Shown: positions 15,665 to 44,152 of the stretch, piece by piece
Position numbering within the stretch: the stretch's first letter is position 1
How the letters are laid out: every line of letters begins with the position of its first letter
Source of the DNA: Methanobacteriota archaeon
GTDB lineage: Archaea > Thermoplasmatota > Thermoplasmata > RBG-16-68-12
Length of the DNA: 64,000 nt
NCBI GenBank assembly: GCA_005878635.1
Contig: VBLS01000110.1
Span: 506 to 64,505, forward strand
Direction: 5' to 3'
Notes under the pieces: model-generated
The model's input: the letters and a program-made list of their open reading frames with translations, nothing else
Database searches by the model: none
Told to the model about the DNA's origin: nothing
Translations under genes and position numbers: made by a program

Positions 15665-16853
15665 GCAGGATTGCCCGCCAAATCCGCTCCGCCGCGAGCG
15701 CTTTCGATCCTTCGAACGACTCGGAGTGACCTTTTCGGTCGAAGATCGTGATCGACGTCGTGTCTCCCTTGACCTGCGACACGTCGTTCGCCACGACGAA
15801 ATCCAGCTCCGCTTCCTTCGCGAGGACCATCGCCTTCGTCTTCAACTCCGCCTCGCTGATCCCGGCCTCCGCTTTGAACCCGACGAGAGCCTTTCGCGTC
15901 CCTTTCCGGAATTGCGCCAGGAGTTTCGGGGTCGGTTCCAACTCGAGGGTCAGCCCGCCTTTCCGACTCGGGATTTTTCCTTTCTGTTTTTTCGTCGGCG
16001 TGAAATCCGAAACGGCAGCGGGCACGAGACAGATTTCCGCGTCGGCCTTGTCTGCCATAGTCGCGAGGCTCTCGGTCGTATCGAACGACTTGGAGGGCAA
16101 CCACGTCGGAACCGTCGTCTCATGGCGGCCGAGCCATAGCTCCACGTCGGCGCCATGCTCGAAGGCGGCCTTCGCGAGTTCGATTCCGGTCCCCCCGGTC
16201 GATCGGTTCGTCACCACACGGACGTCGTCGATCGGCTCGACGGTCGCTCCGGCGACGACGAGGACACGCATGTCTTGAAGGTCCCTCGGCCCGAGACGTC
16301 GGAGGACCCTCGCGACGATCGTCTCCACGTCCGCCATCTTCGCCTTGTCCTCCTCCCGCTTCGCCTCGACCAATTCCACGCCCAGTTCTCGCAGCCGACG
16401 GATGTTCGCCGCGGCCGCGGGATTGTCCATCATAGACTCGTGGGCCGCGGGAGCGAGGAGAATCGGGATGCCAGAACCGAGGGCGTTGGCCGCATAGGTC
16501 GTCACGGTCGTGTCGTCGATCCCTTGGGCGATTTTCCCCATCGTATTCGCCGTGCACGGCGCGATTAGGAGGAGGTTCGCCTTCCCGTCCCGCCCGCACA
16601 TCGTCAGGTACTCCATCGAACCGGTGATGGCCGTGACCACGGGATTGCCGGTCGCGAACTGCAGGGCGTTGGGATGAACGATTTCGGTTGCGGATCGAGT
16701 GAGGACGGCGTGGACCTCGGCACCGTGGCGAATCAACTCGTGCGCGAGCTTCACCGTCTCGACGGCCGCAATGCTGCCCGTGATTGCCAGGACGATCGTT
16801 TTGCCCTGGAGCTTCATGCTCTTCCGTCCACGGAGACGGTCGGCGGGATGCAT
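15648..16853 (-). CDS. coaBC: Bifunctional phosphopantothenoylcysteine decarboxylase / phosphopantothenate-cysteine ligase
   Basis: N-terminal flavoprotein domain (KTIVLAITGSIAA, PCTANTMGKIA) and a C-terminal DFP/CoaB domain (VTNRSTGGTG, AAVSDF). Confidence 0.85.
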   Translation of the reverse strand: MHPADRLRGRKSMKLQGKTIVLAITGSIAAVETVKLAHELIRHGAEVHAVLTRSATEIVHPNALQFATGNPVVTAITGSMEYLTMCGRDGKANLLLIAPCTANTMGKIAQGIDDTTVTTYAANALGSGIPILLAPAAHESMMDNPAAAANIRRLRELGVELVEAKREEDKAKMADVETIVARVLRRLGPRDLQDMRVLVVAGATVEPIDDVRVVTNRSTGGTGIELAKAAFEHGADVELWLGRHETTVPTWLPSKSFDTTESLATMADKADAEICLVPAAVSDFTPTKKQKGKIPSRKGGLTLELEPTPKLLAQFRKGTRKALVGFKAEAGISEAELKTKAMVLAKEAELDFVVANDVSQVKGDTTSITIFDRKGHSESFEGSKALAAERIWRAILHGVRG

Positions 16854-24064: not shown

Positions 24065-25963
<1,899 letters not shown>

Positions 25964-26194
25964 CTATTTCGCAACCTCAAGATTGGCTGCCAAGGCCCTC
26001 TCGCAGCCCATCCCAAATGACGCGCCAAGTATACGGTGGGTATTGATAAAGGTTCGGACCCTGGTTTCTATGGAGAAAACAGGCCCTTTGGACCGGTCTC
26101 TTTCTTTAAGTACTTTAGCACGGCCTCGAACAGCCCCCCATTCTCAACTTCGAGAATGGCGGAGAAGGGCCCCAAACGGGCCCAAAAAATCGCT

Positions 26195-27604
26195 TCATTT
26201 GAGCTTCCAACGGACGCCGTCGCGGGCATCTTCGAGCACGATGCCGACGGCCGCGAGCGCGTCCCGGATTCGGTCGGCCGTGGCGAAGTCTTTTCGCTTC
26301 CTCGCATCCTCGCGCAGTCCCACGATCAGGTCCAAGACGCCGTCGAGTCGGTCGGTTTCCGAAGGCTTCATTTGGAACAGGCCGAGGACGTCCCCGAACG
26401 TCCGAAAAGCCTCGGCGGCACCGTCGAGCGGTCCTCGGCCGACGCCACTCTCGATCGCCTTGTTCACGTCCCGCGCAAATTCGAATAGGACCGCAATCGC
26501 CTCGCGAGTGTTGAAGTCGTCCGACATCGCGGCGTCGAAGGCCGCGAGAGAATTCTTCGTCGCATCTCGGAGCCCCGGATCCGCTTTCCCCTTCGGCGGC
26601 GCTCGGCGACGCTCAGCCTCGACCGAGCGAACCGTTTCCCGGAGGCGCTCGTAGGAGCGCTTGGCTTCTTCGAGCAGTTCGGGGGCGAAGTCGATCGGGC
26701 CTCGGTACTGCACGTTGATCAGGAAGAACCGGAGGACCTCGGGCTCGTATCGCTCGAGGGCCGCTTGGACTGGCCAAAAGTTGCCGAGGGACTTGTGCAT
26801 CTCGGCGCCGCTCACCATGACCATGCCGCCGTGCATCCAGTACCGGACGAAGGGTGTGACACCGGTGAAGGATTCCGCCTGGGCAATCTCCGCCTCGTGG
26901 TGGGGGAAGGCGAGTTCCGTGCCGCCGCCGTGCAGGTCGTACTGCACCCCGAAGTGACGGATTGTGATCGCGGTGTCCTCGATGTGCCAGCCGGGCCGGC
27001 CCGGTCCCCAGGGACTCTCCCACGCCGGCTCCCCCGGCTTCTGGGCCCTCCAGAGGACGAAGTCCGCCGGATGCCGCTTGCGCTCCTCGATCTCGATGCG
27101 GGCACCCGGGCGGAGCTCCTCCACTTTCTGGCCGCTGAGTTTGCCCCATCCGGAGAAGGTCGTCGTGTCGAAATAGACGCTCTTGTCTTCCGCGACGTAG
27201 GCGTGTCCCTTCCTGATGAGGCCTTGAATCTGTTCCACGATCTCGTCGATGTAGTCCGTCGCGAACGCGTACACGTCGACCGACGTGCACTGCAGCCGCT
27301 CCATCACGTCCCGGAATTCCGCGAAATACTGCGCGACGATGTCGTCCCAGGCCCGCCTGGTCGACTTCATCTTCGCGATGATCCGGTCCTCGATGTCCGT
27401 CACGTTTTGTAGGTAGAAGACGTGGTAGCCTTTGGAGCGCAAGTACCGGGCGACGACGTCGAACGCGACGTAGGTCTTCGCGTGGCCCAGGTGGGTCTGA
27501 TCCTGCGGCGTGATGCCGCAGACGAACATCGACACCCGCTTCCCATGGAGGGGGACGAACGCCTCCTTCTTCCGCGAGAGGGTGTTGTACACTCGAAGAG
27601 GCAT
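26195..27604 (-). CDS. cysS: Cysteinyl-tRNA synthetase
   Basis: Class I aaRS with HIGH (HLGH) and KMSKS-like (KSLGN) motifs and the CysRS zinc-binding Cys. Confidence 0.9.
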   Translation of the reverse strand: MPLRVYNTLSRKKEAFVPLHGKRVSMFVCGITPQDQTHLGHAKTYVAFDVVARYLRSKGYHVFYLQNVTDIEDRIIAKMKSTRRAWDDIVAQYFAEFRDVMERLQCTSVDVYAFATDYIDEIVEQIQGLIRKGHAYVAEDKSVYFDTTTFSGWGKLSGQKVEELRPGARIEIEERKRHPADFVLWRAQKPGEPAWESPWGPGRPGWHIEDTAITIRHFGVQYDLHGGGTELAFPHHEAEIAQAESFTGVTPFVRYWMHGGMVMVSGAEMHKSLGNFWPVQAALERYEPEVLRFFLINVQYRGPIDFAPELLEEAKRSYERLRETVRSVEAERRRAPPKGKADPGLRDATKNSLAAFDAAMSDDFNTREAIAVLFEFARDVNKAIESGVGRGPLDGAAEAFRTFGDVLGLFQMKPSETDRLDGVLDLIVGLREDARKRKDFATADRIRDALAAVGIVLEDARDGVRWKLK

Positions 27605-27623
27605 TCTCTCTCCGGATGAGAGG

Positions 27624-27640
27624 AGCGTGTATTAAGGTTC
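27624..27640 (-). promoter_or_regulatory. TATA-like box (CCTTAATACAC on the minus strand) about 28 nt upstream of cysS
   Basis: GTGTATTAAGG lies at 27627-27637. The cysS ATG is at 27602-27604 on the minus strand. Confidence 0.3.
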
Positions 27641-27721
27641 TTTCCGAGGAAGCCCCGCGGCCCGACCATGCGCGACGGAGATCCTTTGTCAATGCGAATC
27701 GCGGACGCCTGACAACAGCTT

Positions 27722-28480
27722 ATGGAGAGCGGGAGCGGATGCGGTCGGATCATGACGGGCCCCTTTCTCCTTCCGCGCGCGGCCCGTCGTCGTGCGTTCT
27801 GGCCTCGCGAGTTGCGGCGCGGAGCCTTGCTCCTCGGCGTGAGCGCCGCGCTCTTCTGGTCCTCCTTCGCAATCGGCCGATGGATCGTCTTCTTCCCCGA
27901 GTCCGGCCCGATCTACGTCGACCTGCTCCTCGGCTGGATTGCCGTGATCGTCCATGTCTCGGCGTGGCCAAATCTCTGGGTCGGTTTGCGCGACCTCCGC
28001 GGACGTCAGCCTCGCGACGACCACCCGGTCATCGCCTGGCGCTCCTTCCTGATGACGCTCGTCATGATCGTCGCCGCGGTGGTGGTCCTCCCGCTCGAGT
28101 ACCACTCCCTCTCGGCGACGGATGCGTGGATCTTCGTCGCGTATGTGAGCGCTTTCCCATATCTGGGTTGGACGTTCGTCCCGATCCTCGCCCTTCACGG
28201 CGTCCTCTTCGGTCGGGTCGCTTGGTACCTCGAGTCTCGATCGCGGAGGATCGCGGACGCGGGGGCCATGCTCCTGTTCGCGGTCGCGGCGGCGACGACC
28301 GCGGTGATCTTGCAGAACCCTGGGGAGACCGCGTTCGTGCGTTCGTGGAGCGTCGGCCAGGGATTGCTTCCCGCGGCGGCCCTTGGCGGATATGTGCTCA
28401 TCGCCCTCGGGATCACGGCTTCGTCCACGGCACCCTTCGCGCGGGTCCCATCATGGACTCCGCGGCGGACCCGGTGGTAG
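27722..28480 (+). CDS. Hypothetical polytopic membrane protein
   Basis: At least six hydrophobic helices and coding-like composition, with no recognisable motif. The start is uncertain. Confidence 0.45.
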   Translation: MESGSGCGRIMTGPFLLPRAARRRAFWPRELRRGALLLGVSAALFWSSFAIGRWIVFFPESGPIYVDLLLGWIAVIVHVSAWPNLWVGLRDLRGRQPRDDHPVIAWRSFLMTLVMIVAAVVVLPLEYHSLSATDAWIFVAYVSAFPYLGWTFVPILALHGVLFGRVAWYLESRSRRIADAGAMLLFAVAAATTAVILQNPGETAFVRSWSVGQGLLPAAALGGYVLIALGITASSTAPFARVPSWTPRRTRW

Positions 28481-28483
28481 GCC

Positions 28484-29608
28484 TCAGGCCAGGGCCCGTC
28501 CCAGGTCGTCCTGCAGATCCTGCGGGTCCTCCAATCCGACGGAGAAGCGGACCAGGCCGTCGGTGATCCCTTGCGCCTGGCGTTGTTCCTTGGGCACGCT
28601 TGAATGCGTCATCGTGGCCGGGTGCTCGATGAGCGACTCGACGCCCCCCAGGCTCTCCGCGAGGATGATGATCTCGAGTTTTCGCAGGCGGTCCGCGACC
28701 TTGGCCGAATCTCGGAGTTCAAAACTGAGCATGCCGCCGAATCCGCGCATCTGTTTCTTCGCGGTCCGATGGCCCGGATCGTCGGGCAGGCCCGGATAGT
28801 GGACCGCGGAGACGGCCTTGTGGCCGCCGAGGAATCGAGCCATCGCCTGGGCGTTGGCGGAGTGCCGTTCCATCCGGATCGCCAAGGTCTTGATGCCGCG
28901 GAGGGTGAGCCAACAGTCGAACGGGCTCGGCACCGCGCCGAGGGCGTTTTGTGCGAACTTCAGTTTCTCGTACAGGTCTCCGCGGTTCATGATGAGCGCC
29001 CCGCCCAAGAGGTCCGCGTGGCCCCCGAGGTACTTCGTCGTGCTATGGACGACGAGGTCGACGCCGAGGCCCAAAGGGTTTTGCAACGCCGGCGACGCGA
29101 AGGTGTTGTCGCACACGCTGACCGCGTCGTGGGCCTTCGAGATCACGGCGAGCTCCCGCAAGTCGGCGACCTTCATGAGGGGGTTCGTGGGCGACTCCAT
29201 CCACAACATCTTCGTCTCCGGGCGAAACGCATCCTCGACATCGACGAGGTCCCGCAGGTCCACGAAGGTGGACTCCACTCCGTACCCGCTCATGATTCGC
29301 GTGAAGATTCGATAGACGCCGCCGTAGCAGTCATCCGTCACCACCGCGTGGTCGCCTTTCTTGAGCAGGGTGAGGGCCGTCGTGATCGCGCCCATGCCAC
29401 TGGAGAAGCAGAGGGCCTGCTGGCCCTCCTCGAGGGCCGCGAGGCTCTGCTGGAGCGCATCGCGGGTCGGGTTGTCGCCCCTCCCGTAGACGTAATCGTG
29501 CTGGACCTTCTGGGAGTACGTCGACGTCATGTAGATCGGCGGCGTGACCGCGCCGGTCCGAGGGTCCGGTTCCTGTCCGGCGTGGATGGCCTTCGTCGCA
29601 AAGTGCAT
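28484..29608 (-). CDS. PLP-dependent cystathionine gamma-lyase / gamma-synthase family enzyme (Cys/Met metabolism)
   Basis: N-terminal MHFATKAIHAG and the PLP-lysine motif HSTTKYLGGH. The tracked ORF extends a further 157 codons upstream as an R/G/P-rich artefact that overlaps the CBS gene. Confidence 0.85.
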   Translation of the reverse strand: MHFATKAIHAGQEPDPRTGAVTPPIYMTSTYSQKVQHDYVYGRGDNPTRDALQQSLAALEEGQQALCFSSGMGAITTALTLLKKGDHAVVTDDCYGGVYRIFTRIMSGYGVESTFVDLRDLVDVEDAFRPETKMLWMESPTNPLMKVADLRELAVISKAHDAVSVCDNTFASPALQNPLGLGVDLVVHSTTKYLGGHADLLGGALIMNRGDLYEKLKFAQNALGAVPSPFDCWLTLRGIKTLAIRMERHSANAQAMARFLGGHKAVSAVHYPGLPDDPGHRTAKKQMRGFGGMLSFELRDSAKVADRLRKLEIIILAESLGGVESLIEHPATMTHSSVPKEQRQAQGITDGLVRFSVGLEDPQDLQDDLGRALA

Positions 29609-29655
29609 CGCGATCGCCGCGGGAGGAGTCGCCCGCCTGGCGTAAAAGCCTTGCC

Positions 29656-31026
29656 TCAGGTCCGGCCCGCGAGGTACTCGATCACGTCGATGCGGGTGAT
29701 GATCCCCTCGAGTCGGTCCTCCTTGCCGATGACGACGGCGGGGTTGCCGCGCATCAAGAGTTTGTAGACCTTCTCCAGGTCGGCGCCGGGTTCGACCAGA
29801 GGGAACGGCTTCTCCATGACCTTCGCGACGTAGTCGTCGTACATCTTCGGATTCCCGAGCAAAGCTTTCATGAGGATCTCTTCGCGCAAGCTTCCGACGA
29901 GGATCCCCGTGTCCAGGACCGGGAGTTGGGACACGTTGTATTGGCGCATCATGTCGACCGCTTCCCGCACTCGGGCCGCGACGTCGATCGTGACGACCCC
30001 GGGGATCGTCCGCTCCTTCGCCCTCAGGATCGTCATGAGGGGCGCGACCGGTTCCTCCAGGTACCCTTGCTCCTTCAGCCACTCCTCGTTGTGCGCCTTG
30101 GAGAGGTAGCGTTCCCCGGTGTCCGGCAGCAGGACGACCAAGACGTCCTTCGGGCCGAGGGTCTCCGCGATTCGGCGGGCGGCCACCACAGCGGCTCCGC
30201 TCGAACTGCCCGCGAGGATCCCCTCCTCGCGGGCGAGGCGCCGGGTCATCAGATAGGCCTCCTTGTCGGCGACTTTGACGACGTCGTCGATGTACTGGAA
30301 CCAGGTGGATTCCGGGATGAAGTCCTCCCCGATCCCCTCGATCTTGTACGTGTGAGCTTTTATCATCTCCTTCTTATAGAAATAGTCCTTCAGGATCGAG
30401 CCGAGCGGGTCCACGCCGATGACCCGAACCTTCGGGTTCTGCTCCTTCAGGTAGCTGCCGACCCCGCTGATTGTTCCGCCGGTCCCCATCCCGCAGACGA
30501 AGTGGGTGACCGTCCCGTCCGTGTCTCGCCAAATCTCGGGGCCGGTCGTCTCGTAGTGGGCGCGTGGATTGGCCTGGTTGGCGTACTGGTTCGGTAGAAT
30601 CGAATTCGGGGTCTCACGGTGGATCCGTTCGGCGACGCGGTAGTAGGAGTCCGGATGGTCCGGCGGGACGGCGGTCGGCGTGACGACCACGCGCGCGCCG
30701 AAGGCCTTCAGCAAGTCGATTTTCTCGCGGCTCATCTTGTCAGGCATCGTGAACACGGCCCGATACCCCTTGATCGCGGCCACCATCGCGAGCCCGAGCC
30801 CGGTGTTCCCGCTCGTCGGCTCGATGATCGTCCCGCCGGGCTTCAGCGTCCCCTTCGCCTCGGCGTCCTCGATCATCTTCTCTCCAATCCGATCCTTGAC
30901 GCTCCCGCCAGGGTTCATCATCTCGAGTTTGGCGAGGACGAGGCCCTTCACACCGTCCATGATCTTCGGCAACTGGACGAGCGGTGTATTCCCGATCGTC
31001 TCGAGGATGTTGGAATAGTAGCGCAT
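29656..31026 (-). CDS. Cystathionine beta-synthase (PLP cysteine-synthase fold plus C-terminal CBS-domain pair)
   Basis: PLP-lysine motif GSVKDRIG and GTGGT, followed by tandem CBS domains. Start placed at the ATG in ...VAMRYYSNILETIGNTPL... (29th codon of the tracked ORF, M29). Confidence 0.85.
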   Translation of the reverse strand: MRYYSNILETIGNTPLVQLPKIMDGVKGLVLAKLEMMNPGGSVKDRIGEKMIEDAEAKGTLKPGGTIIEPTSGNTGLGLAMVAAIKGYRAVFTMPDKMSREKIDLLKAFGARVVVTPTAVPPDHPDSYYRVAERIHRETPNSILPNQYANQANPRAHYETTGPEIWRDTDGTVTHFVCGMGTGGTISGVGSYLKEQNPKVRVIGVDPLGSILKDYFYKKEMIKAHTYKIEGIGEDFIPESTWFQYIDDVVKVADKEAYLMTRRLAREEGILAGSSSGAAVVAARRIAETLGPKDVLVVLLPDTGERYLSKAHNEEWLKEQGYLEEPVAPLMTILRAKERTIPGVVTIDVAARVREAVDMMRQYNVSQLPVLDTGILVGSLREEILMKALLGNPKMYDDYVAKVMEKPFPLVEPGADLEKVYKLLMRGNPAVVIGKEDRLEGIITRIDVIEYLAGRT

Positions 31027-31138
31027 GGCCACCGGTGAAGATGCAAGACGGTTGACGTTATAAGAACGTACGCGCCGGGTCCCTTCACATCGGTTGGCGA
31101 GGCCATCCATCTAAGGGCGCGGGAGACAAACCGGGACG

Positions 31139-31211
31139 TGCCGGGGGAGGGAGTCGAACCCCCAGGAAACCGATCTGCAGTCGGTCACATTAGCCGCTCT
31201 GTCACCCCGGC
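31139..31211 (-). tRNA. tRNA-Cys (anticodon GCA)
   Basis: Folded by hand from the reverse complement. Acceptor stem GCCGGGG/CCCCGGC, anticodon stem ACCGA/TCGGT, loop CUGCAGA with U33, anticodon GCA and G37. T-arm GGGGG-TTCGACT-CCCTC. The discriminator reads A. CCA is not encoded. Confidence 0.75.
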
Positions 31212-31369
31212 GCGGCTCGCGCATCCGGGGAAACGGTATTGAAGCTTTGGAGCGGCGATCCCCACCTTCGGACGATGCGGTCCCGGGTGGCGCCAACTCC
31301 GCGTTCCGGGCAAGACCTTGCCCCACGCGCAGGTTTCGCTTCTTGCCGAAGCGGTTTGAACATTGTTTC

Positions 31370-31386
31370 AAAACGTATTAAGGACG
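31370..31386 (+). promoter_or_regulatory. TATA-like box (CGTATTAAGG) upstream of the SBP gene
   Basis: It lies about 55 nt upstream of the TTG start. GGGAGG at 31421-31426 sits 8 nt before the start codon. The same GTATTAAGG core occurs upstream of cysS. Confidence 0.25.
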
Positions 31387-31433
31387 ACCCGCCGTTGTGT
31401 TACTTTACCGCTTGCTCAAGGGGAGGCATGTGA

Positions 31434-34091
31434 TTGGGCGCTGAACCGGAGGCAGAAAGCTCGTCCTCCGATTCCGGCGCCTCGCGTGCGTCGAGGGCCC
31501 TTCGATCCCGCTGGGGGAAAGTCGCCGCCGTCGCGGTCGTCGCCATCGCGGTGGCCGCCGCGTCGGCCTACGTGCTTCGAGCATCGAACCAGGCGCCGAC
31601 GATCACTCAAGCAACCGTGAGTTCGGAGTTTGCGACCACCGGTCAGAGCCTGACCTTCGCCGGACAGGCGACGGATGCCGATGGGGATTCGCTCCGGTAC
31701 ACCTGGAACTTCGGCGACAATTCAACCGCGATCGGGGCGGTCGTGAGCCATGCATACTCGATCCCGGGTCGATACGTCGATCTCCTCACAGTGACGGACG
31801 GCCGAGGCGGCGAAGCGACCAACGACGCGAGGCTCCTGTTCGTCCAAGCCCAACTTCCTCCGTCGGAAATCGCATCCCCCTCCCGGCCGCCGAATGGTTC
31901 GTGCGCGACGGACTGCATCCTCGGTCCGGGGGCCGCGATCCTGACGGCGAACCAGACGACCGTCGTGACCGGGGCCGCCGTCCGGTTCAACGGGAACGCG
32001 TCCTGGGCTTACGGTTGGAATTGGAACAACGTTTCGAATCGATCCGAAGGCGGTTCCTCGGTCGTGATCCCTTCCGCGGACAACGGATTTCTCTTCACCA
32101 CGTTCACCTACGGTTGGGGAGACGGGACACCGGAGGGCGGGGGGAGTTCCGAGACAGCCGGGGCGACAAGCCACGTCTTCACCTCTCCCGGGAATTTTTT
32201 CGTCCGCTTGACGCTGACCTTGCCCACCGTCTCCGGCGTGCAGACCTTGAGCGCCGGCTACACCATCCGCGTGACGCCGACGGTTCCTGTGGCAGTCCTG
32301 AAACATCCGGGAGTCTTCACGACGGCGACGTTCGGAGAACCGGATTCCCTCGATCCCGCCGCGGACATCGAGACCGCCGGCGTCGAGATCCTCCAGAACG
32401 TGTACGAGACCCTCGTTTGGTATGAACCGGGGGTTGAGAACGTCACCGTCCTCGTCCCGCGTCTCGCGATGGAGGTCCCGACCGCCGCGAACGGAGGCAT
32501 CTCGCCCGATGGGAAGAACTACACCTTCACGATCCGATCGGACGTCAAGTTCCACAGCGGCAACGTCCTCTCGCCGGACGACGTCGTCTATTCGCTCCGT
32601 CGCGTCCTCGCCATGCACGACCCGAATGGACCTTCGTGGATCCTGGAACAGACCCTCACGAACTACGTCTCAAAGTACCTGAACTCTTGCGGAGCGGCCG
32701 CGAACCGGACCTGTTCGCTCGCGGACTATGCGGACACCGCGTTCCCGTCCCGGGCGGCGATCCCACCGAACATCCGAACGGTCTTGGAGGGCGCCGCCCA
32801 AGGGGCAAACTGGTCCGCGAAGCCGCTGAACCGATCCGTCGCGTGGGCCGTGAGCAATTCCACGGTGGAGAAGGTCGGGACAGACCAGGTCCGAATTCAC
32901 CTCAGCCGACCGTATCCCGCGTTCCTCCAGTCGCTCGCTTTCACCGTCGGCTCCATCGTCGAGAAGGCGTGTGCCGCGACCTGGGACGATTGGGGGGCTC
33001 GGAATCCGATGCTGGACCGCCGCCGCGATTGCGGCACCGGCCCGTATGGGCTCACCGGATGGGTGCCAAACCAAGCGATCGTCCTGAGCCGCTTCGATGG
33101 ATACTGGGGAAGCCCCGCGGCCCTCGAAGGGGTGCGCATCGAGAAGGCGAACGATGTCACGGCCCGAGAGTTCCTCCTGCTGTCCGGAGACGCGGACACC
33201 GCGGTCATCAACCATGATCACCAGTTCGACGTGATGAATCCGGACGGCACGCCGCGATACCCGTGGCTGCGGATCCCAAGTTCCCGACCCTCCCTCGACA
33301 TCACCGTCTTCGGGTACAACCAGGCGATCAATGCGTCCGCCGTCCCCGACCCGCTGGAGGTCCCGCCGACGTTCTTCTCGAACCTCCATGTGCGGAAGGC
33401 GTTCAGCTATGCGTTCGACTACGCGGGATTCATGGACAACGTGACGTACAAGACGGGGATTCAGCTGCGCGGCCCGATCGCGAAGGGGGTCCCGGGCTAC
33501 AACATGAGCACGCCGCTCTTCACGTTCAACCTCACGCGCGCCGCGTCGGAGCTCGGACAGACCCCCTACTGGACCTCCGGCTTCAACATCACCTTGTACT
33601 ATAACGCGGGGAACACGGAACGCCGCCAGGGATGTCTCCTCCTCCGACAGGGCCTGCAGGCGTTGCATGATGAACTGGGTGCGGGGCCCATCTCCGTGGA
33701 CGTCCGGGCCCTTGACTGGCCCGCGTACCTGAGGACCTTACGGGCTCGAGGCCTCCCGATCTTCTTCCTCGGATGGCGCGCGGACTACGCGGACCCGGAT
33801 GACTACGTCCTCCCGTTCTTGAGGACCGGCGGCCTCTTCGCGAGCCGGTTAGGGTACAGCAACACCACCCTCGACGCCCTGATCGACGCCGCGGCGGCGG
33901 AGCTGAACCAGACGAAACGCGACGGGCTGTACCAAGACCTGTCGACGCGCGCGGTCTTGGACGACGTGCCGTACCTCTGGGTCTACCAGTCCCGGAGCTT
34001 CCATGTGGAGCGGGCCTGGGTGCGGGGCTATTACTACAACCCGATGCTGTCCGGCCTCGACTACCACCCTCTCTCCAAGGCCCTCGGCTGA
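31434..34091 (+). CDS. Extracellular solute-binding protein family 5 (OppA/DppA-like) with N-terminal PKD/Ig-like domain and signal anchor
   Basis: N-terminal hydrophobic anchor, then a PKD-like domain (YTWNFGDNS...GRYVDLLTVTDGRGG), then the SBP_bac_5 core (FGEPDSLDP, VKFHSGN). No ABC permease or ATPase genes are adjacent. Confidence 0.75.
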   Translation: MGAEPEAESSSSDSGASRASRALRSRWGKVAAVAVVAIAVAAASAYVLRASNQAPTITQATVSSEFATTGQSLTFAGQATDADGDSLRYTWNFGDNSTAIGAVVSHAYSIPGRYVDLLTVTDGRGGEATNDARLLFVQAQLPPSEIASPSRPPNGSCATDCILGPGAAILTANQTTVVTGAAVRFNGNASWAYGWNWNNVSNRSEGGSSVVIPSADNGFLFTTFTYGWGDGTPEGGGSSETAGATSHVFTSPGNFFVRLTLTLPTVSGVQTLSAGYTIRVTPTVPVAVLKHPGVFTTATFGEPDSLDPAADIETAGVEILQNVYETLVWYEPGVENVTVLVPRLAMEVPTAANGGISPDGKNYTFTIRSDVKFHSGNVLSPDDVVYSLRRVLAMHDPNGPSWILEQTLTNYVSKYLNSCGAAANRTCSLADYADTAFPSRAAIPPNIRTVLEGAAQGANWSAKPLNRSVAWAVSNSTVEKVGTDQVRIHLSRPYPAFLQSLAFTVGSIVEKACAATWDDWGARNPMLDRRRDCGTGPYGLTGWVPNQAIVLSRFDGYWGSPAALEGVRIEKANDVTAREFLLLSGDADTAVINHDHQFDVMNPDGTPRYPWLRIPSSRPSLDITVFGYNQAINASAVPDPLEVPPTFFSNLHVRKAFSYAFDYAGFMDNVTYKTGIQLRGPIAKGVPGYNMSTPLFTFNLTRAASELGQTPYWTSGFNITLYYNAGNTERRQGCLLLRQGLQALHDELGAGPISVDVRALDWPAYLRTLRARGLPIFFLGWRADYADPDDYVLPFLRTGGLFASRLGYSNTTLDALIDAAAAELNQTKRDGLYQDLSTRAVLDDVPYLWVYQSRSFHVERAWVRGYYYNPMLSGLDYHPLSKALG

Positions 34092-35477: not shown

Positions 35478-35609
35478 TCGCAAAACGACGCATGGCAACG
35501 GCGTTTGTCAACGCGGCGGACGTTCGTCGGACAACTTTTAAATAGCGTCCGCCGAATACGCGGCCATCTTGCGGGATGGGATGACCTCGCAGGTTCTGCA
35601 GGTGGCGGA

Positions 35610-36704
35610 ATGAACTCGATGCTAGAGGATGTGCTCGCCCGGGAAGGGAGTGCTCCAGCGTTTGAAGACAGCCGGGTGGACGCCGAGCTCGAAGAGATGC
35701 TCAGCAAGATGCGGACCAACATCAAGATCATCGGCCTCGGTGGAGGAGGCTGTAACACGATCGCCCGCGTCTACGGCGAGGGGATTGTCGGTGCCGAGCT
35801 CTTTGCCTGCAACACGGATGCGCAACACCTGCTCCACATTGCGTCTCCCAAGAAGGTCCTCCTCGGACGGAGGATTACGAAGGGCCTGGGGGCCGGCGCC
35901 TTGCCGCAGATCGGCGAGGAGGCCGCCCGCGAGGCGGAGGAAGAGCTTCGCGCCATTGTCCAAGGATCCGACATCGTCTTCGTGACATGCGGCCTGGGCG
36001 GTGGGACTGGGACTGGGAGCTGCGGCTACGTCGCCCGACTCGCCAAGGAGATGGGCGCGCTCACGATCGCCGTGGTCACCCTCCCGTTCCGGGGCGAGGG
36101 CAAGCTACGCATGGAGAGCGCAGAATGGGGATTGGAGCGGCTCCGGGATGCGGCGGACACCGTGATCACGATCCCGAATGACAAGCTCTTGGACCTGGTC
36201 CCGCGACAGTCGTTGAACCTCGCGTTCAAGTTCGCGGACGAGGTCCTGATGCGGTCCATCAAAGGCCTGACGGAGATTATCACGAAGCCGGGTCTGGTGA
36301 ACCTCGACTTCAACGACGTCAAGACGATCATGAAAGGCGGAGGCGTCGCCATGATCGGCCTGGGGGAGAGCCAGGCGGTCGGCGACAACCGCGCCGTCGA
36401 GGCGATCGAGGAAGCGATCAATTCGCCGCTGTTGGAGGTCGACGTCTCCACGGCCCACGGAGTCCTCATCAACGTGACCGGCGGGAACGACATGACGATT
36501 TCCGAGGCCGAGCGCGTTGCGGAGGTCGTCCAGTCGAAGGTGTCTCCCACCGCGCGGATCATCTGGGGCGCAACGGTGGATCCGTCCCTCGAGCACACGC
36601 TGCGAGTCATGCTCGTCGCGACCGGAGTGAAGTCCAAGCAGATCGTCGGGCGGCGCGATCCGTCCGAGGAACGGGTCCGCGTCGGCGTCGATGTCATCCG
36701 GTGA
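35610..36704 (+). CDS. ftsZ: Cell division GTPase FtsZ (paralog 1)
   Basis: Tubulin signature GGGTGTG, IKIIGLGGGGCN and the T7 loop NLDF. Confidence 0.9.
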   Translation: MNSMLEDVLAREGSAPAFEDSRVDAELEEMLSKMRTNIKIIGLGGGGCNTIARVYGEGIVGAELFACNTDAQHLLHIASPKKVLLGRRITKGLGAGALPQIGEEAAREAEEELRAIVQGSDIVFVTCGLGGGTGTGSCGYVARLAKEMGALTIAVVTLPFRGEGKLRMESAEWGLERLRDAADTVITIPNDKLLDLVPRQSLNLAFKFADEVLMRSIKGLTEIITKPGLVNLDFNDVKTIMKGGGVAMIGLGESQAVGDNRAVEAIEEAINSPLLEVDVSTAHGVLINVTGGNDMTISEAERVAEVVQSKVSPTARIIWGATVDPSLEHTLRVMLVATGVKSKQIVGRRDPSEERVRVGVDVIR

Positions 36705-36836
36705 GCGCTCCGACCTCTCCATTTCACGGGAGGACGGAGCGGATCCCGCGAACCCGGAAACCTTTATTAACGCTCCCCCTTTACATCTCATTCGCGGTTG
36801 CTTCATTTGCTTCCTCGGGCAGCCGGAGGCCGAACC

Positions 36837-37943
36837 ATGGATTCCATTGTGAGGGAAGTCGTCACCCGCTCCGGTGTGGAAACTCGGGTGCCCGAATCGC
36901 CCACCGCTTCGATCGGAATGGGGGCGGAAGACGCCGAGCTCGAGCGAATTCTCGCGAGCCTCCGGACGAACATCAAGATCGTGGGCATCGGAGGAGGCGG
37001 GTGCAACACGATCGACCGGCTCGTCGAATCCGGTATCGTCGGCGCCGAGCTGTTCGCGGCGAACACGGATGCGCAGCACCTGCTCGTCATCCGGTCCCCT
37101 CACAAGCTCCTCCTCGGTCGGCGCGTGACCCGGGGCCTCGGCGCGGGAGCGCTCCCGCAGGTCGGGGAAGAATCGGCCCGCGAAGCCGCGGACGAACTGC
37201 GATCCGTCGTCCACGGCGCGGACATGGTGTTCATCACCTGCGGCCTGGGCGGCGGCACCGGGACGGGAGGCGCCCCTGTGCTCGCCCAGCTCGCGAAGGA
37301 AGCGGGCGCCCTCACGATCGCCATCTGCACTTTCCCCTTTCGTGCGGAGGGCGCGATCCGCGCCGAGAACGCGGAGTACGGACTCGAGAAGCTACGCAGC
37401 TTTGCCGACACCGTCGTCGTGATCCCGAACGACAAACTGCTTGAACTCGTCCCGCGTCTAGCGTTGAACGCGGCGTTCAAGGTGGCGGACGACGTGCTCA
37501 TGCGAGCGATCAAGGGGATCACCGAGGTCATCACGAAGCCGGGCTTGGTCAACTTGGACTTCAACGACATCAAGACGATCATGAAAGGCGGAGGCGTCGC
37601 GATGATCGGCCTCGGCGAGTCGGACACGGACAACCGGGCCGAGGAGTCGATCGAGGAAGCGATCAATTCGCCCCTGATCGACGTCGACATCAGCGGCGCG
37701 ACTGGCGCCCTCGTGAACGTCACCGGCGGGAACGACATGAGCGTGGCCGAGGCCGAGAAGGTCGCGGAGATCGTGCAAGGCCGGATTGCACGGAACGCCC
37801 GCATCATCTGGGGCGCCGCCGTCGATCCGAGCCTGGAGCATCGGCTCCGCGTCATGCTGATCCTGACCGGGGTCCGCTCCAAGCAGATCCTCGGACCGGG
37901 CGAACACGTCCGCCCTCAGGGCGGCCTCGACATCGTGCGGTGA
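36837..37943 (+). CDS. ftsZ: Cell division GTPase FtsZ (paralog 2)
   Basis: A second complete FtsZ with GGGTGTG and IKIVGIGGGGCN. GGAGG lies 6 nt upstream of the ATG. Confidence 0.9.
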   Translation: MDSIVREVVTRSGVETRVPESPTASIGMGAEDAELERILASLRTNIKIVGIGGGGCNTIDRLVESGIVGAELFAANTDAQHLLVIRSPHKLLLGRRVTRGLGAGALPQVGEESAREAADELRSVVHGADMVFITCGLGGGTGTGGAPVLAQLAKEAGALTIAICTFPFRAEGAIRAENAEYGLEKLRSFADTVVVIPNDKLLELVPRLALNAAFKVADDVLMRAIKGITEVITKPGLVNLDFNDIKTIMKGGGVAMIGLGESDTDNRAEESIEEAINSPLIDVDISGATGALVNVTGGNDMSVAEAEKVAEIVQGRIARNARIIWGAAVDPSLEHRLRVMLILTGVRSKQILGPGEHVRPQGGLDIVR

Positions 37944-44111: not shown

Positions 44112-44152
44112 AACATAATTCAACCCGATTCCATGGGACTGTGGGGCGGTCG

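What the first reader, a model, noticed from the sequence alone, without database searches (positions are those of the whole stretch)
26195..31211. Cysteine module: tRNA-Cys, cystathionine beta-synthase, cystathionine gamma-lyase/synthase and CysRS co-localised on one strand
Four minus-strand elements read tRNA-Cys(GCA) -> CBS -> CGL -> (membrane protein on the opposite strand) -> cysS. CBS plus CGL constitute reverse transsulfuration from homocysteine to cysteine. Many archaea rely on SepRS/SepCysS or on O-acetylserine sulfhydrylase instead. Finding the biosynthetic enzymes, the tRNA and the synthetase together is a striking functional clustering. It suggests co-regulation or joint acquisition.
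Basis: partly seen in the sequence, partly recalled or inferred. Interest (0 to 1): 0.55.

Follow-up and report, generated by a model that had tools for sequence, protein, structure and literature searches.

The report
Cysteine-making genes beside cysteinyl-tRNA synthetase
A soil archaeon keeps the two ordinary enzymes that turn methionine-derived homocysteine into cysteine next to the cysteine tRNA and its charging enzyme; the three protein genes stay together across distant relatives, so the grouping is real, but the parts are well known.

Summary
On the minus strand lie tRNA-Cys(GCA) (31211-31139), a haem-less cystathionine beta-synthase with a Bateman module (31026-29656), a cystathionine gamma-lyase-type PLP enzyme (29608-28484) and class I CysRS (27604-26195). 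An unconserved membrane ORF sits on the plus strand between the last two.

The organism is a soil/sediment Thermoplasmata archaeon, probably Ca. Angelarchaeales (GTDB RBG-16-68-12).

The order CBS>CGL>cysS is kept in 9 further lineages of this clade. In five more distant Thermoplasmata loci it forms a compact operon with overlapping genes, CBS-CGL-cysS-ADH(-serS). Their flanks are otherwise unrelated, so the trio's linkage exceeds background synteny. None of 73 bacterial CBS loci has cysS or tRNA-Cys nearby.

In this window the string is loosened. Each unit has its own conserved TATA-like element, and relatives tolerate insertions, so it is not a single operon.

The tRNA-Cys adjacency is specific to this clade. 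Its 3' flank is an insertion hot spot.

Most likely function: reverse transsulfuration supplying cysteine for charging. Whether the pair came from bacteria is unresolved.

Side findings: tRNA-Cys has discriminator A73, not U73, and CysRS has Asp at the Cys209 zinc-ligand position.

Verdict: ordinary enzymes in a probably undescribed but modest gene arrangement.

The parts
31139..31211 (-). tRNA-Cys, anticodon GCA, discriminator A73 (not U73), no encoded CCA
   Evidence: ARAGORN. Rfam RF00005 at 57.3 bits, with an alignment showing the last model position is A. The same ...GGCA end is found in all intact copies of relatives.
31235..31248 (-). TATA-like element (AAAGCTTCAATACC) about 24-37 nt upstream of the tRNA 5' end; putative tRNA promoter
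   Evidence: Conserved as AAAGnTTCAATAC in L007, L008, L009, L010 and L020. Coordinates. Its promoter function is inferred.
31056..31069 (-). TATA-like element ACGTTCTTATAACG, 30-43 nt upstream of the CBS ATG; putative CBS promoter
   Evidence: Conserved in L007, L008, L009 and L020, and as GGTTCAAATA in L010, L087 and L091. It is retained even where 0.8 kb is inserted between the tRNA and CBS. Coordinates. Function is inferred.
29656..31026 (-). Cystathionine beta-synthase, 456 aa, haem-less, with a C-terminal Bateman (2x CBS) module. PLP lysine K44 (SVKDR); TSGNTG and GTGGT loops.
   Evidence: Pfam PALP plus CBS. TIGR01137 at 531.5 bits against a cut-off of 510.25. The best solved relative is M. 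tuberculosis Rv1077 CBS at 394 bits, against 279 bits or less for cysteine synthases. Motif positions.
29639..29652 (-). TATA-like element AAGGCTTTTACGCC about 31-44 nt upstream of the CGL ATG, inside the 47-nt CBS-CGL spacer
   Evidence: Conserved upstream of CGL in L007, L008, L009, L087 and L090. This includes loci where CBS and CGL are 0.76-1.1 kb apart. Coordinates.
28484..29608 (-). Cystathionine gamma-lyase-type PLP enzyme (Cys_Met_Meta_PP), 374 aa. Motifs: Y-G-R at 41-43, YGG at 95, PLP lysine K192 (HSTTKY), AESLGG at 317, RFSVG at 354.
   Evidence: PF01053 at 487 bits. The best NCBIfam models are PRK07811 and PRK07671, both below their cut-offs. The best PDB hit is 7BA4, the P. aeruginosa CGL, at 419 bits. 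Motif positions.
27722..28480 (+). Polytopic membrane ORF (252 aa, or 242 aa from the ATG at 27752), unknown family. A variable filler, not part of the module.
   Evidence: No Pfam or NCBIfam hit. About 6 hydrophobic segments. Only 50-64% identical in L007-L009. Replaced by a BAT/HTH_10 regulator in L087-L089. Absent from the outgroup operons.
27627..27640 (-). TATA-like element GAACCTTAATACAC about 23-36 nt upstream of the cysS ATG
   Evidence: Conserved as AACCTTAATAC in L007 and L087, and as AACTTTAATAG in L008. Coordinates.
26195..27604 (-). Class I cysteinyl-tRNA synthetase, 469 aa. HIGH motif is HLGH (38-41); KMSKS reads EMHKS (268-272). Zinc site is C29, D210 (E. coli C209), H235, E239.
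   Evidence: TIGR00435 at 467 bits against a cut-off of 340. Pfam tRNA-synt_1e plus DALR_2 plus CysS_C. Alignment to E. coli 1LI5. Motif statistics.

Best explanation
This is a conserved Thermoplasmata gene string for cysteine supply and charging.

**Proposed pathway**
1. Homocysteine comes from methionine through SAM-dependent methylation and SAH hydrolase. Those genes are not in the window.
2. CBS, a haem-less PLP enzyme with lysine K44, condenses homocysteine with serine to give cystathionine. Its Bateman module probably binds an adenosyl ligand such as SAM.
3. The CGL-type PLP enzyme (lysine K192) cleaves cystathionine to cysteine, 2-oxobutyrate and ammonia.
4. The adjacent class I CysRS activates that free cysteine and loads it on tRNA-Cys(GCA).

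**Evolutionary picture**
- The linkage CBS>CGL>cysS is old. In distant Thermoplasmata it is a compact, translationally coupled operon, CBS-CGL-cysS-ADH(-serS).
- In the window's clade (Angelarchaeales-like) the string has loosened into separate transcription units, each with its own archaeal promoter. Unrelated ORFs are tolerated between them.
- In this clade it has also become a neighbour of tRNA-Cys upstream and gyrBA downstream.

**What is shown and what is inferred**
- Shown here: gene identities, motif conservation, synteny, overlapping junctions in the outgroups, and conserved TATA-like elements.
- Inferred: enzyme activities, direction of flux, SAM regulation, actual transcripts, and that linkage is maintained by selection for co-expression.
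For: **Family assignments**
- CBS passes the TIGR01137 equivalog cut-off and has a Bateman module.
- Its best solved relative is the SAM-activated, haem-less M. tuberculosis Cbs, which has the same K44 (PMC9232105).
- The CGL-type enzyme is closest to the biochemically verified PaCGL 7BA4 and other bacterial CGLs. It shares YGR, Y-stacking YGG, HSTTKY, AESLGG (human E339/S340) and R of RFSVG.
- CysRS passes TIGR00435.

**Synteny within the clade**
- The same order is found on all contigs read that carry the identical CBS (23 read).
- It is also found in L007, L008, L009, L087-L089, L091 and L093-L095. Identities fall to CBS 71%, CGL 74% and CysRS 65%.

**Synteny beyond the clade**
- Five Thermoplasmata loci carry CBS>CGL>cysS>ADH. 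Their CysRS belongs to the sister group of the window's enzyme in the NJ tree; that group's representative, P0253, is 48% identical to the window's CysRS.
- Stops and starts overlap or lie 1-4 nt apart. SerRS follows in two of the loci, and SAH hydrolase lies 5-7 kb downstream in three.
- Their flanks are otherwise unrelated to the window's.

**Other points**
- None of 73 bacterial CBS loci has cysS or tRNA-Cys within 8 kb.
- CBS and CGL NJ trees are congruent, so the pair travels together.
- Context: SepRS/SepCysS are reported absent from nearly all Thermoplasmata, so free cysteine is needed for CysRS (PMC8762117).
- Angelarchaeales are described as aerobic users of peptides and amino acids, with little evidence of using inorganic nitrogen or sulfur compounds as alternative electron acceptors (PMC9038741).
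Against: - No activity or expression data exist.
- The CGL-type protein falls below every NCBIfam equivalog cut-off: 493 against 513 for PRK07811, which is named CGS, and 462 against 594 for MccB-type CGL.
- It has Val where human and yeast CGL have E59/E48 (alignment region; PMC6073527). Sequence alone therefore cannot exclude CGS-like chemistry.
- The SAM-contact residues mapped in MtbCbs (D432, W433) are not conserved. Only the human T535/D538-like T-x-I-D is kept.
- In this window the genes have separate promoter-like elements, so co-regulation is unproven.
- In one relative (L090) cysS is not downstream of CGL.
- Within the clade the whole 25-kb block is syntenic, so within-clade conservation alone says little.
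- The rest of the genome could not be searched for cysK, cysM, cysE, ahcY or metK.
Confidence: 0.72

Rival explanations
1. The neighbourhood is largely incidental. tRNA-Cys is a recombination or integration hot spot, and CBS-CGL (or the tRNA) landed there by chance. The cluster persists only because the whole region is syntenic. There is no functional coupling between the tRNA, the enzymes and cysS.
For: - At least five different insertions lie immediately 3' of tRNA-Cys in relatives: a 247-aa ORF in L008, 0.8 kb in L020, a response regulator in L094, an aconitase in L011, and a 5-kb island bracketed by an intact and a decayed tRNA-Cys copy in L087, L088 and L091.
- The tRNA is absent from all five outgroup loci.
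- The block from HD to CoaBC is syntenic throughout the clade.
- Each gene has its own TATA-like element.
Against: - For the three protein genes the argument fails. CBS>CGL>cysS recurs with overlapping genes in outgroup Thermoplasmata whose flanks are unrelated.
- No att-like tRNA fragment or direct repeat flanks CBS-CGL in the window.
- This rival therefore stands only for the tRNA-Cys part, and for gyrBA.
Confidence: 0.2
2. CBS-CGL is a bacterial reverse-transsulfuration operon acquired by horizontal transfer into the window's clade. It either replaced an older archaeal pair in situ or was inserted beside tRNA-Cys and cysS.
For: - The window's CBS is 53-56% identical to FCB-group, Binatia and Chloroflexota CBS, but only 47-50% identical to the outgroup Thermoplasmata CBS. 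CGL is 55% against 51-52%.
- Many bacterial loci carry the same CBS>CGL order.
- In NJ trees the clade groups with one delta-proteobacterial, one Binatia and one Chloroflexota sequence for both genes: 140/200 bootstraps for CBS and 198/200 for CGL.
- All-archaea monophyly is recovered in only 5/100 and 16/100 bootstraps.
Against: - The trees are distance trees only, with sampling limited to the top 80 hits of one pattern scan.
- The identity differences are a few percent.
- The divergence of CBS and CGL between the two archaeal groups (47-52%) matches that of their CysRS (48%), as vertical descent of the whole trio predicts.
- The identical gene order with cysS in both archaeal groups is most simply explained by common ancestry.
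- GC content and codon pattern are not atypical.
Confidence: 0.25
3. The Cys_Met_Meta_PP enzyme is not a gamma-lyase. It would be a cystathionine gamma-synthase, beta-lyase or methionine gamma-lyase, so the pair serves methionine synthesis or degradation rather than cysteine synthesis.
For: - The best NCBIfam model, PRK07811, is named cystathionine gamma-synthase, and no equivalog cut-off is reached.
- Several near-top PDB hits are deposited as CGS or CBL: 3QHX, 4L0O and 6CJA.
- The E59/E48 position is Val.
Against: - The top solved hits are characterised CGLs: PaCGL 7BA4 at 419 bits and the CGL entries 6K1L-6K1O. E. coli CGS scores 310 bits, plant CBL 305 and MGLs 348 or less.
- Motifs: YGG, where I recall that MGLs have YGC. 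AESLGG, where I recall VSLG in MGLs and YSWG in CBL. No second Arg of the E. coli CGS S-R-R motif, also from my own recall of those sequences.
- E48 substitutions in yeast CGL are near-neutral, and T. gondii CGL has Ser at that position (PMC6073527).
- The gene is invariably paired with a bona fide CBS, whose product is the CGL substrate.
- From my own knowledge, the M. tuberculosis MetB orthologue behind PRK07811 has CGL activity and sits beside cbs.
Confidence: 0.07
4. The trio is a sulfide or persulfide module rather than a biosynthetic one. CBS, CGL (CSE) and CysRS (CARS) are the three enzymes reported to make cysteine persulfide, and the operon would co-express them for redox defence.
For: - PMC7563103 names exactly CBS, CSE and CARS as the CysSSH-forming enzymes.
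- Bacterial CBS/CGL pairs are H2S sources (PMC7483736, PMC11039470).
- The organisms are described as aerobes (PMC9038741).
- In L090 the genes after CBS-CGL include rhodanese, TusA and MOSC genes.
Against: - Three of the four PLP-binding lysines needed for the persulfide-synthase activity of E. coli and human CARS are not kept in the window's CysRS: K73 is R, K76 is A and K266 is E.
- This CysRS looks like the housekeeping enzyme. It is the only one in the window, it passes TIGR00435, and SepRS is reported absent from the class.
- Persulfide or H2S formation would be a side activity of the same enzymes, not an alternative design.
Confidence: 0.08

Closest known systems
Bacterial reverse-transsulfuration gene pairs: M. 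tuberculosis Rv1077 (cbs)/Rv1079, P. aeruginosa PA0399/PA0400, L. plantarum, H. pylori and B. subtilis cbs(mccA)-cgl(mccB) clusters
   Same: - A CBS-type fold-II PLP enzyme is followed on the same strand by a Cys_Met_Meta_PP gamma-lyase.
- The closest solved relatives are MtbCbs (394 bits) and PaCGL (419 bits).
- Like MtbCbs, the CBS is haem-less and has a Bateman module (PMC9232105).
- Many bacterial loci fetched here have the same CBS>CGL order.
   Different: - It is in an archaeon.
- It is linked to cysS, and here also to tRNA-Cys, which none of 73 bacterial loci shows.
- MccA-type bacterial enzymes lack the Bateman module and use O-acetylserine (PMC7483736).
- In this window the pair has separate promoter-like elements rather than an obvious operon.
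Biosynthetic gene plus cognate aminoacyl-tRNA synthetase operons, e.g. B. subtilis gltX-cysE-cysS (T-box controlled; from my own knowledge)
   Same: A cysteine-biosynthesis gene is co-located, and in the outgroup Thermoplasmata probably co-transcribed, with cysS. Amino-acid supply is thereby coupled to charging.
   Different: - The route differs: reverse transsulfuration rather than serine acetyltransferase.
- The domain differs.
- No T-box, riboswitch or other Rfam element is present.
- Regulation, if any, is unknown.
tRNA-dependent cysteine synthesis (SepRS/SepCysS) of methanogens and other archaea
   Same: It concerns how archaea obtain Cys-tRNA-Cys, and gene clustering around the tRNA-charging enzyme is known there too (PMC8762117).
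   Different: The mechanism is unrelated. Here free cysteine is made and charged directly by a class I CysRS. SepRS and SepCysS are reported absent from almost all Thermoplasmata (PMC8762117), and none is in the window.
tRNA genes as integration sites of genomic islands
   Same: In relatives a 5-kb island is bracketed by an intact and a decayed tRNA-Cys copy. Several unrelated insertions sit just 3' of the tRNA.
   Different: No integrase, att repeat or tRNA fragment is associated with CBS-CGL in the window. The CBS-CGL-cysS string exists without any tRNA in the outgroups.
Non-U73 tRNA-Cys / variant CysRS pairs of some methanogens (A73 in Methanolobus and Methanocella; Perona et al. 2018 as cited in PMC8762117)
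   Same: tRNA-Cys carries A73 instead of the usual U73 identity base, together with a divergent CysRS.
   Different: It occurs in Thermoplasmata, which lack SepRS. The CysRS changes seen here are in the zinc site (Asp for Cys209) and the KMSKS loop. Whether the acceptor-binding region has co-varied was not analysed.

Membership tests
Cystathionine beta-synthase (TIGR01137, EC 4.2.1.22) | Fold-type II PLP domain with the Schiff-base lysine and the Asn and Gly loops | tested here: met
   PF00291 at 273 bits. SVKDR (K44), TSGNTG at 71-76, GTGGT at 181-185 and SSSG at 274 align with MtbCbs, whose active-site lysine is K44 (PMC9232105).
Cystathionine beta-synthase (TIGR01137, EC 4.2.1.22) | Whole-protein score above the curated equivalog cut-off, and better than the cysteine-synthase models | tested here: met
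   TIGR01137 scores 531.5 bits against a cut-off of 510.25. CysK, CysM and other models score lower: 401 bits for the next-best model (cysteate synthase) and 286-376 for the cysteine-synthase models, of which the shorter TIGR01136/TIGR01139 just pass their own cut-offs. PDB cysteine synthases score 279 bits or less, against 394 for MtbCbs.
Cystathionine beta-synthase (TIGR01137, EC 4.2.1.22) | C-terminal Bateman module (two CBS motifs) | tested here: met
   PF00571 matches in two stretches, E=2.5e-17.
Cystathionine beta-synthase (TIGR01137, EC 4.2.1.22) | SAM-responsive regulation through the Bateman module | tested here: inconclusive
   The T-x-I-D motif (T444/D447) matches human T535/D538. 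The MtbCbs SAM residues D432/W433 align to G/N.
Cystathionine beta-synthase (TIGR01137, EC 4.2.1.22) | N-terminal haem domain (metazoan type) | tested here: not met
   The protein starts at the catalytic core; residue 6 aligns with human residue 78-79. This places it with the yeast and bacterial haem-less type. It is not a defining feature of the family as a whole.
Cystathionine beta-synthase (TIGR01137, EC 4.2.1.22) | Catalyses Ser + Hcy -> cystathionine | not testable with these tools
   Needs an enzyme assay.
Cystathionine gamma-lyase (bacterial PaCGL/MccB type, EC 4.4.1.1) | Cys_Met_Meta_PP fold-type I domain with catalytic Lys, stacking Tyr, carboxylate-binding Arg, and the E-S of the AESLGG motif | tested here: met
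   PF01053 at 487 bits. YGG at 95, HSTTKY (K192), AESLGG at 317 and RFSVG at 354 align with PaCGL Y110, K208, S337 and R372 and with human E339/S340.
Cystathionine gamma-lyase (bacterial PaCGL/MccB type, EC 4.4.1.1) | Score above a curated CGL equivalog cut-off | tested here: not met
   PRK07671 scores 462 against 594, PRK06434 scores 342 against 634, PRK07582 scores 322 against 440. The top model, PRK07811 (named CGS), scores 493 against 513. The subfamily therefore cannot be named from HMM cut-offs.
Cystathionine gamma-lyase (bacterial PaCGL/MccB type, EC 4.4.1.1) | Closest characterised relatives are CGLs rather than CGS, CBL, MGL or MetY | tested here: met
   PDB ranking: PaCGL 419 bits and the CGL entries 6K1L-6K1O 406-410, above human CGL 359, MGL 348, E. 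coli CGS 310 and CBL 305. The MetY model match is split into two stretches.
Cystathionine gamma-lyase (bacterial PaCGL/MccB type, EC 4.4.1.1) | Second specificity glutamate (human E59 / yeast E48) | tested here: not met
   The aligned residue is Val (...DYVYGR...). PaCGL has Asp and T. gondii CGL has Ser there, and yeast E48 mutants are near wild type, so this is weak evidence against membership.
Cystathionine gamma-lyase (bacterial PaCGL/MccB type, EC 4.4.1.1) | Genomic pairing with CBS | tested here: met
   It lies next to or near CBS in every archaeal locus long enough to judge, and in many bacterial loci.
Class I cysteinyl-tRNA synthetase (TIGR00435) | Catalytic Rossmann domain with HIGH and KMSKS, DALR and C-terminal anticodon-binding domains; score above cut-off | tested here: met
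   TIGR00435 scores 467 against 340. PF01406, PF09190 and PF23493 all match. HLGH is present. KMSKS is degenerate (EMHKS) but keeps the second Lys.
Class I cysteinyl-tRNA synthetase (TIGR00435) | Canonical zinc ligands C28, C209, H234, E238 (E. coli numbering) | tested here: not met
   C29, H235 and E239 are kept, but C209 is Asp (D210). This is a clade trait. It is seen in 119/120 close homologues, in all 119 hits to the sister representative P0253 (several named Thermoplasmata archaeon by their sources) and in 26 of the 150 nearest 50% representatives. It lowers confidence in canonical chemistry, not in the assignment as CysRS.
Co-transcribed operon (cbs-cgl-cysS) | Same strand, short or overlapping junctions, no internal promoters or opposite-strand genes | tested here: not met
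   In the window the spacers are 112, 47 and about 880 nt. A plus-strand ORF lies between CGL and cysS, and conserved TATA-like elements precede each gene. The feature is met in the outgroup loci L096-L098 and L100, where there are 4-11 nt overlaps or 1-4 nt gaps.

The most novel reading that the evidence does not exclude
CBS-CGL-cysS would be an ancient, class-wide Thermoplasmata operon that physically couples methionine-derived cysteine synthesis to a divergent Cys-charging system. That system comprises a CysRS subfamily with Asp in place of the Cys209 zinc ligand and, at least in the window's order, a tRNA-Cys whose main identity base U73 is replaced by A73. On this reading, linkage has kept co-adapted partners and their substrate supply together. 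A further possibility is that the trio doubles as a cysteine-persulfide system, because CBS, CGL and CysRS are the three known CysSSH-forming enzymes.
Probability: 0.15. Interest if true: 0.6.

Novelty: new variant of a known kind. Interest (0 to 1): 0.35.

Why it matters
Routes to cysteine are still unassigned for many archaea (PMC5120207).

A conserved CBS-CGL-cysS string argues that a large group of uncultured soil and sediment Thermoplasmata make cysteine from methionine sulfur. It also suggests they tie that supply to tRNA charging. This fits their proposed life on peptides and amino acids in oxic soils.

It gives annotators a context rule for naming the otherwise ambiguous Cys_Met_Meta_PP paralogue.

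The side observations are cheap, testable leads on how cysteine identity and thiol selection can change. These are the A73 tRNA-Cys and the natural Asp at a zinc-ligand position, where Cys-to-Asp substitution of the zinc ligands C28 and C209 is reported to impair E. coli and human CysRS.

None of this overturns current understanding. The enzymes and the pathway are textbook.

Tried and rejected
1. **Riboswitch, T-box or leader RNA coupling the tRNA to the enzymes.** A lax Rfam scan of 25900-31500 found only the tRNA.
2. **Sigma-70 promoter and intrinsic-terminator scan.** It was uninformative for an archaeon, with counts at shuffle level.
3. **Remnants of integration around CBS-CGL.** There is no second match to either half of tRNA-Cys in the window at up to 3 mismatches. 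Only chance-level short repeats were found.
4. **My interim conclusion that CBS-CGL was a bacterial operon acquired only by this clade.** It rested on the GTDB scan returning 7 archaeal and then only bacterial loci. I withdrew it when the outgroup Thermoplasmata operons turned up. The scan keeps only the best 80 hits, and those CBS are under 50% identical.
5. **First bootstrap run.** It timed out and was redone with a faster distance routine. Only NJ trees were possible, so deep nodes stay unresolved.
6. **Other cysteine genes in the window.** A Pfam survey of the remaining ORFs found no cysK, cysM, cysE, sepS, pscS, metK or ahcY. CoaBC was the only other cysteine-using enzyme.
7. **The plus-strand membrane ORF as part of the module.** Rejected, because it is replaced or absent in other lineages.
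8. **The island next to tRNA-Cys in L087.** It gave only faint Double-GTPase matches below the Pfam cut-off.
9. **Literature searches for this arrangement.** Nothing relevant was found. The library is incomplete, so absence of a report is not proof of novelty.

Full report
**1. What is in the sequence**

The region 26195-31211 holds four minus-strand elements and one plus-strand ORF.

- ARAGORN and Rfam both find tRNA-Cys(GCA) at 31139-31211.
- Downstream on the same strand is an ORF whose real start is the ATG at 31026. It is 456 aa long and ends at 29656. The same start is called on public contigs and is conserved in all orthologues.
  - It has a PALP domain plus two CBS motifs.
  - It passes the NCBIfam equivalog model for cystathionine beta-synthase: TIGR01137 scores 531.5 bits against a cut-off of 510.25.
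- After a 47-nt spacer comes a 374-aa Cys_Met_Meta_PP enzyme at 29608-28484.
- Next is a plus-strand polytopic membrane ORF at 27722/27752-28480, with no family match.
- Then comes class I CysRS at 27604-26195; TIGR00435 scores 467 bits against a cut-off of 340.
- gyrB and gyrA follow on the same strand.

The long ORF extensions (CBS from 31110, the PLP enzyme from 30082) are high-GC artefacts.

**2. The organism**

- The window carries archaeal hallmark genes: PolD DP2, L1/L10/L12, Spt5 and two FtsZ genes.
- The exact CBS protein occurs on many soil and sediment metagenome contigs.
- Its closest named homologues are labelled 'Thermoplasmata archaeon' and 'Euryarchaeota archaeon RBG_16_67_27' (84% identity).
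- The RBG_16_67_27 genome is classified in GTDB order RBG-16-68-12, which is Ca. Angelarchaeales. These are described as aerobic soil and sediment archaea living on peptides and amino acids (PMC9038741).
- Membership of the window's organism in that order is inferred, not shown.

**3. The enzymes**

CBS:
- Its best solved relative is M. tuberculosis Rv1077 at 394 bits. Cysteine synthases reach at most 279 bits.
- Like MtbCbs, it has no haem domain, it has a Bateman module, and it even has the same PLP lysine number, K44 (PMC9232105).
- MtbCbs is activated by SAM. Here the human T535/D538-type T-x-I-D motif is kept, but the MtbCbs SAM residues D432/W433 are not. SAM control is therefore plausible but unproven.

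The PLP enzyme:
- It is closest to P. aeruginosa PA0400 (7BA4, 419 bits), a biochemically verified CGL (PMC11039470), and to other bacterial CGLs. E. coli CGS (310 bits), plant CBL (305) and MGLs (348 or less) are well behind.
- It keeps the stacking Tyr (YGG, where I recall that MGLs have YGC), the PLP Lys (HSTTKY), the Arg of RFSVG, and the E-S of AESLGG. That E-S pair corresponds to human E339/S340.
- It fails every NCBIfam equivalog cut-off, and it has Val at the human-E59 position.
- CGL therefore remains an inference. It is made strong by the invariable pairing with a bona fide CBS, whose product is the CGL substrate.

CysRS:
- It is the ordinary class I enzyme by domain content.
- It differs in two respects described in section 8.

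**4. Conservation inside the clade**

The order tRNA-Cys, CBS, CGL, (variable ORF), cysS, gyrB, gyrA is found:
- on all contigs read that carry the identical CBS;
- in GTDB species representatives L007, L008 and L009 (CBS 90-81% identical);
- in L087-L089 and L091 (CBS 71-72%, CysRS 65%);
- in L093-L095.

At least 14 further 90%-identity clusters of CBS and CysRS share the same longest-contig length, which suggests a shared contig.

Two qualifications apply.
- The whole block, from the HD-domain gene to CoaBC, is syntenic in these genomes. Conservation within the clade is therefore no more than background.
- One lineage (L090) has CBS-CGL followed by esterase, HIT, MOSC, rhodanese and TusA genes instead of cysS.

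**5. Conservation beyond the clade: the key result**

- A search of 1.84 billion cluster representatives showed that the window's CysRS cluster is isolated. The next representatives are at most 48% identical.
- The nearest representative, P0253, and its homologues are other 'Thermoplasmata archaeon' proteins.
- All five contexts I could fetch (L096-L100) show CBS > CGL > CysRS > a zinc-type dehydrogenase on one strand. SerRS follows in two loci. SAH hydrolase, which makes homocysteine, lies 5-7 kb downstream in three.
- The junctions are 4-11 nt overlaps (ATGA or GTGA) or gaps of 1-4 nt. This is a compact, probably translationally coupled operon.
- The genes flanking this string are unrelated to those in the window, and no tRNA is present.
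- The same three genes in the same order in two groups this far apart, against different backgrounds, is not explained by chance or by inherited synteny of a larger block.
- None of the 73 bacterial CBS loci fetched has cysS or tRNA-Cys within 8 kb, although many have CBS>CGL.

**6. Organisation in the window**

Here the string is loosened.
- Conserved TATA-like elements lie 23-44 nt upstream of the tRNA, CBS, CGL and cysS (31235-31248, 31056-31069, 29639-29652 and 27627-27640).
- They persist in relatives where unrelated DNA separates the genes:
  - 0.8 kb between tRNA and CBS in L008 and L020;
  - 1.1 kb between CBS and CGL in L008;
  - an opposite-strand ORF between CBS and CGL in L087 and L093;
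  - a BAT/HTH_10 regulator in place of the membrane ORF in L087.
- No riboswitch or T-box-like RNA is present.

The four elements are therefore best read as separate transcription units. Co-regulation in this lineage is possible but not evidenced.

**7. The tRNA**

- Its adjacency to CBS is confined to the window's clade.
- In that clade the 3' flank of tRNA-Cys has taken up at least five different inserts.
- One is a 5-kb island that sits between an intact tRNA-Cys and a decayed full-length copy next to CBS (L087, L088, L091).
- That is the signature of a recombination or integration hot spot.
- In the window itself there is no leftover tRNA fragment or repeat.
- I therefore treat the tRNA as a possibly incidental neighbour.

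**8.

- The tRNA-Cys has discriminator A73, not U73, and so do all intact copies in relatives. U73 and the anticodon are the major CysRS identity elements (PMC9976931). Exceptions have been noted in a few methanogens, together with CysRS changes (PMC8762117).
- The CysRS has Asp (D210) where E. coli has the zinc ligand C209. This holds for:
  - 119 of 120 close homologues;
  - all 119 hits to the sister representative P0253, several of which their sources name Thermoplasmata archaeon;
  - 26 of the 150 nearest cluster representatives, most of which form one clade.
- In E. coli and human enzymes, Cys-to-Asp substitution of the zinc ligands C28 and C209 lowers translation (PMC7563103).
- In the window's clade KMSKS reads EMHKS, and the K73/K76 lysines are R/A.
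- These observations are not needed for the main explanation, but they are the most unusual features of the locus.

**9. Origin**

- CBS and CGL distance trees are congruent. The window's clade is monophyletic for both genes (199/200 and 200/200 bootstraps).
- For both genes that clade groups with the same three bacterial sequences (140/200 and 198/200). Its proteins are a few percent closer to bacterial ones than to the outgroup Thermoplasmata ones.
- Against transfer, the divergence of CBS and CGL between the two archaeal groups (47-52%) equals that of their CysRS (48%), and the gene order with cysS is shared. This is what vertical descent predicts.
- With NJ trees and limited sampling I cannot decide. 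I withdrew my interim HGT conclusion.

**10. Comparison with what is known, and verdict**

- The enzymes and the pathway are textbook. CBS-CGL pairs are well described in bacteria (PMC7483736, PMC9232105, PMC11039470).
- Coupling a cysteine-biosynthesis gene to cysS is known in Bacillus (cysE-cysS; from my own knowledge).
- What appears undescribed is the CBS-CGL-cysS string of Thermoplasmata and, in this order, its tRNA-Cys neighbour. My searches found no report, but the library is incomplete.
- I rate it a new variant of a known kind, of modest interest (0.35).
- It is useful for annotation and for inferring that these uncultured archaea draw cysteine sulfur from methionine. It also carries two inexpensive experimental leads in the A73 tRNA and the Asp-type zinc site.

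Noticed in passing
window 31139-31211 (-): tRNA-Cys(GCA) has discriminator base A73 instead of the near-universal U73, which is a major CysRS identity element. All intact tRNA-Cys copies in related loci also end ...GGCA. No CCA is encoded.
   Followed up: partly
window 26195-27604 (-), codon for D210 at about 26975-26977: CysRS has Asp where E. coli CysRS has the zinc ligand Cys209 (GWHIED versus GWHIEC). KMSKS reads EMHKS, and the K73/K76 lysines are R/A. The Asp variant is found in all hits to the sister representative P0253 (several named Thermoplasmata archaeon by their sources) and in 26 of the 150 nearest 50%-identity cluster representatives. EMHKS is confined to the window's clade.
   Followed up: partly
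L087 4655-9900; also L088, L091 and L090: A roughly 5-kb island holds MsrB/SelR plus four unknown genes. Two of these are paralogous P-loop proteins with sub-threshold Double-GTPase matches. The island lies between an intact tRNA-Cys and a decayed full-length tRNA-Cys copy next to CBS, which looks like an integration or duplication at the tRNA.
   Followed up: partly
L008 7195-7938; L020 7178-8000; L094 5307-5737; L011 4291-6177: Four further, mutually unrelated insertions lie between tRNA-Cys and CBS in different relatives: an unknown 247-aa ORF, 0.8 kb of minus-strand ORFs, a small response regulator, and an aconitase-family gene. The 3' flank of tRNA-Cys is an insertion hot spot.
   Followed up: partly
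L096 7414-13823; L097 7465-13848; L098 7437-12495; L100 7461-12477: Distant Thermoplasmata carry a compact operon, CBS-CGL-CysRS-(MDR-family zinc dehydrogenase), followed by SerRS in two loci. SAH hydrolase and a GcvH-like gene lie 5-7 kb downstream in L098-L100. The dehydrogenase has no specific NCBIfam assignment, and its role is unknown.
   Followed up: partly
L090 12625-17600: In one relative (GCA_040961615.1) CBS-CGL is followed not by cysS but by esterase, HIT, MOSC, rhodanese and TusA/GcvH-like genes. That is a different, sulfur-trafficking-flavoured neighbourhood.
   Followed up: no
window 15648-16853 (-): CoaBC (Dfp; phosphopantothenoylcysteine synthetase/decarboxylase), a cysteine-consuming enzyme, lies about 9 kb beyond cysS. 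It keeps that position in L093-L095, and a copy also lies about 7 kb from the operon in outgroup L096.
   Followed up: no
window 31056-31069 (-): The TATA-like element before CBS is embedded in a short inverted repeat, ACGTT-CTTAT-AACGT. It is identical in L007 but degenerate in L008, L009 and L020. It could be an operator or a chance match.
   Followed up: no
window 35505-37943 (+): Two tandem FtsZ paralogues lie next to an HD-domain (dGTPase-like) gene, followed by a small 83-aa ORF (SecE-like by a weak Pfam hit in relatives L087/L091), Spt5 and L11. The arrangement is conserved in all relatives of the clade.
   Followed up: no
window 31434-34091 (+): An 885-aa secreted PKD-domain plus family-5 solute-binding (peptide/oligopeptide ABC) protein lies directly upstream of tRNA-Cys. 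It is present in some relatives (L093, L095) and replaced by other genes in others (L087, L094).
   Followed up: no
window 12740-14392 (+), 42300-44123, 47503-48519 (-), 59338-61008 (-): Several sizeable ORFs with coding-like GC3 bias have no Pfam match at E<=1e-3. These include a 550-aa ORF and a 556-aa ORF.
   Followed up: no
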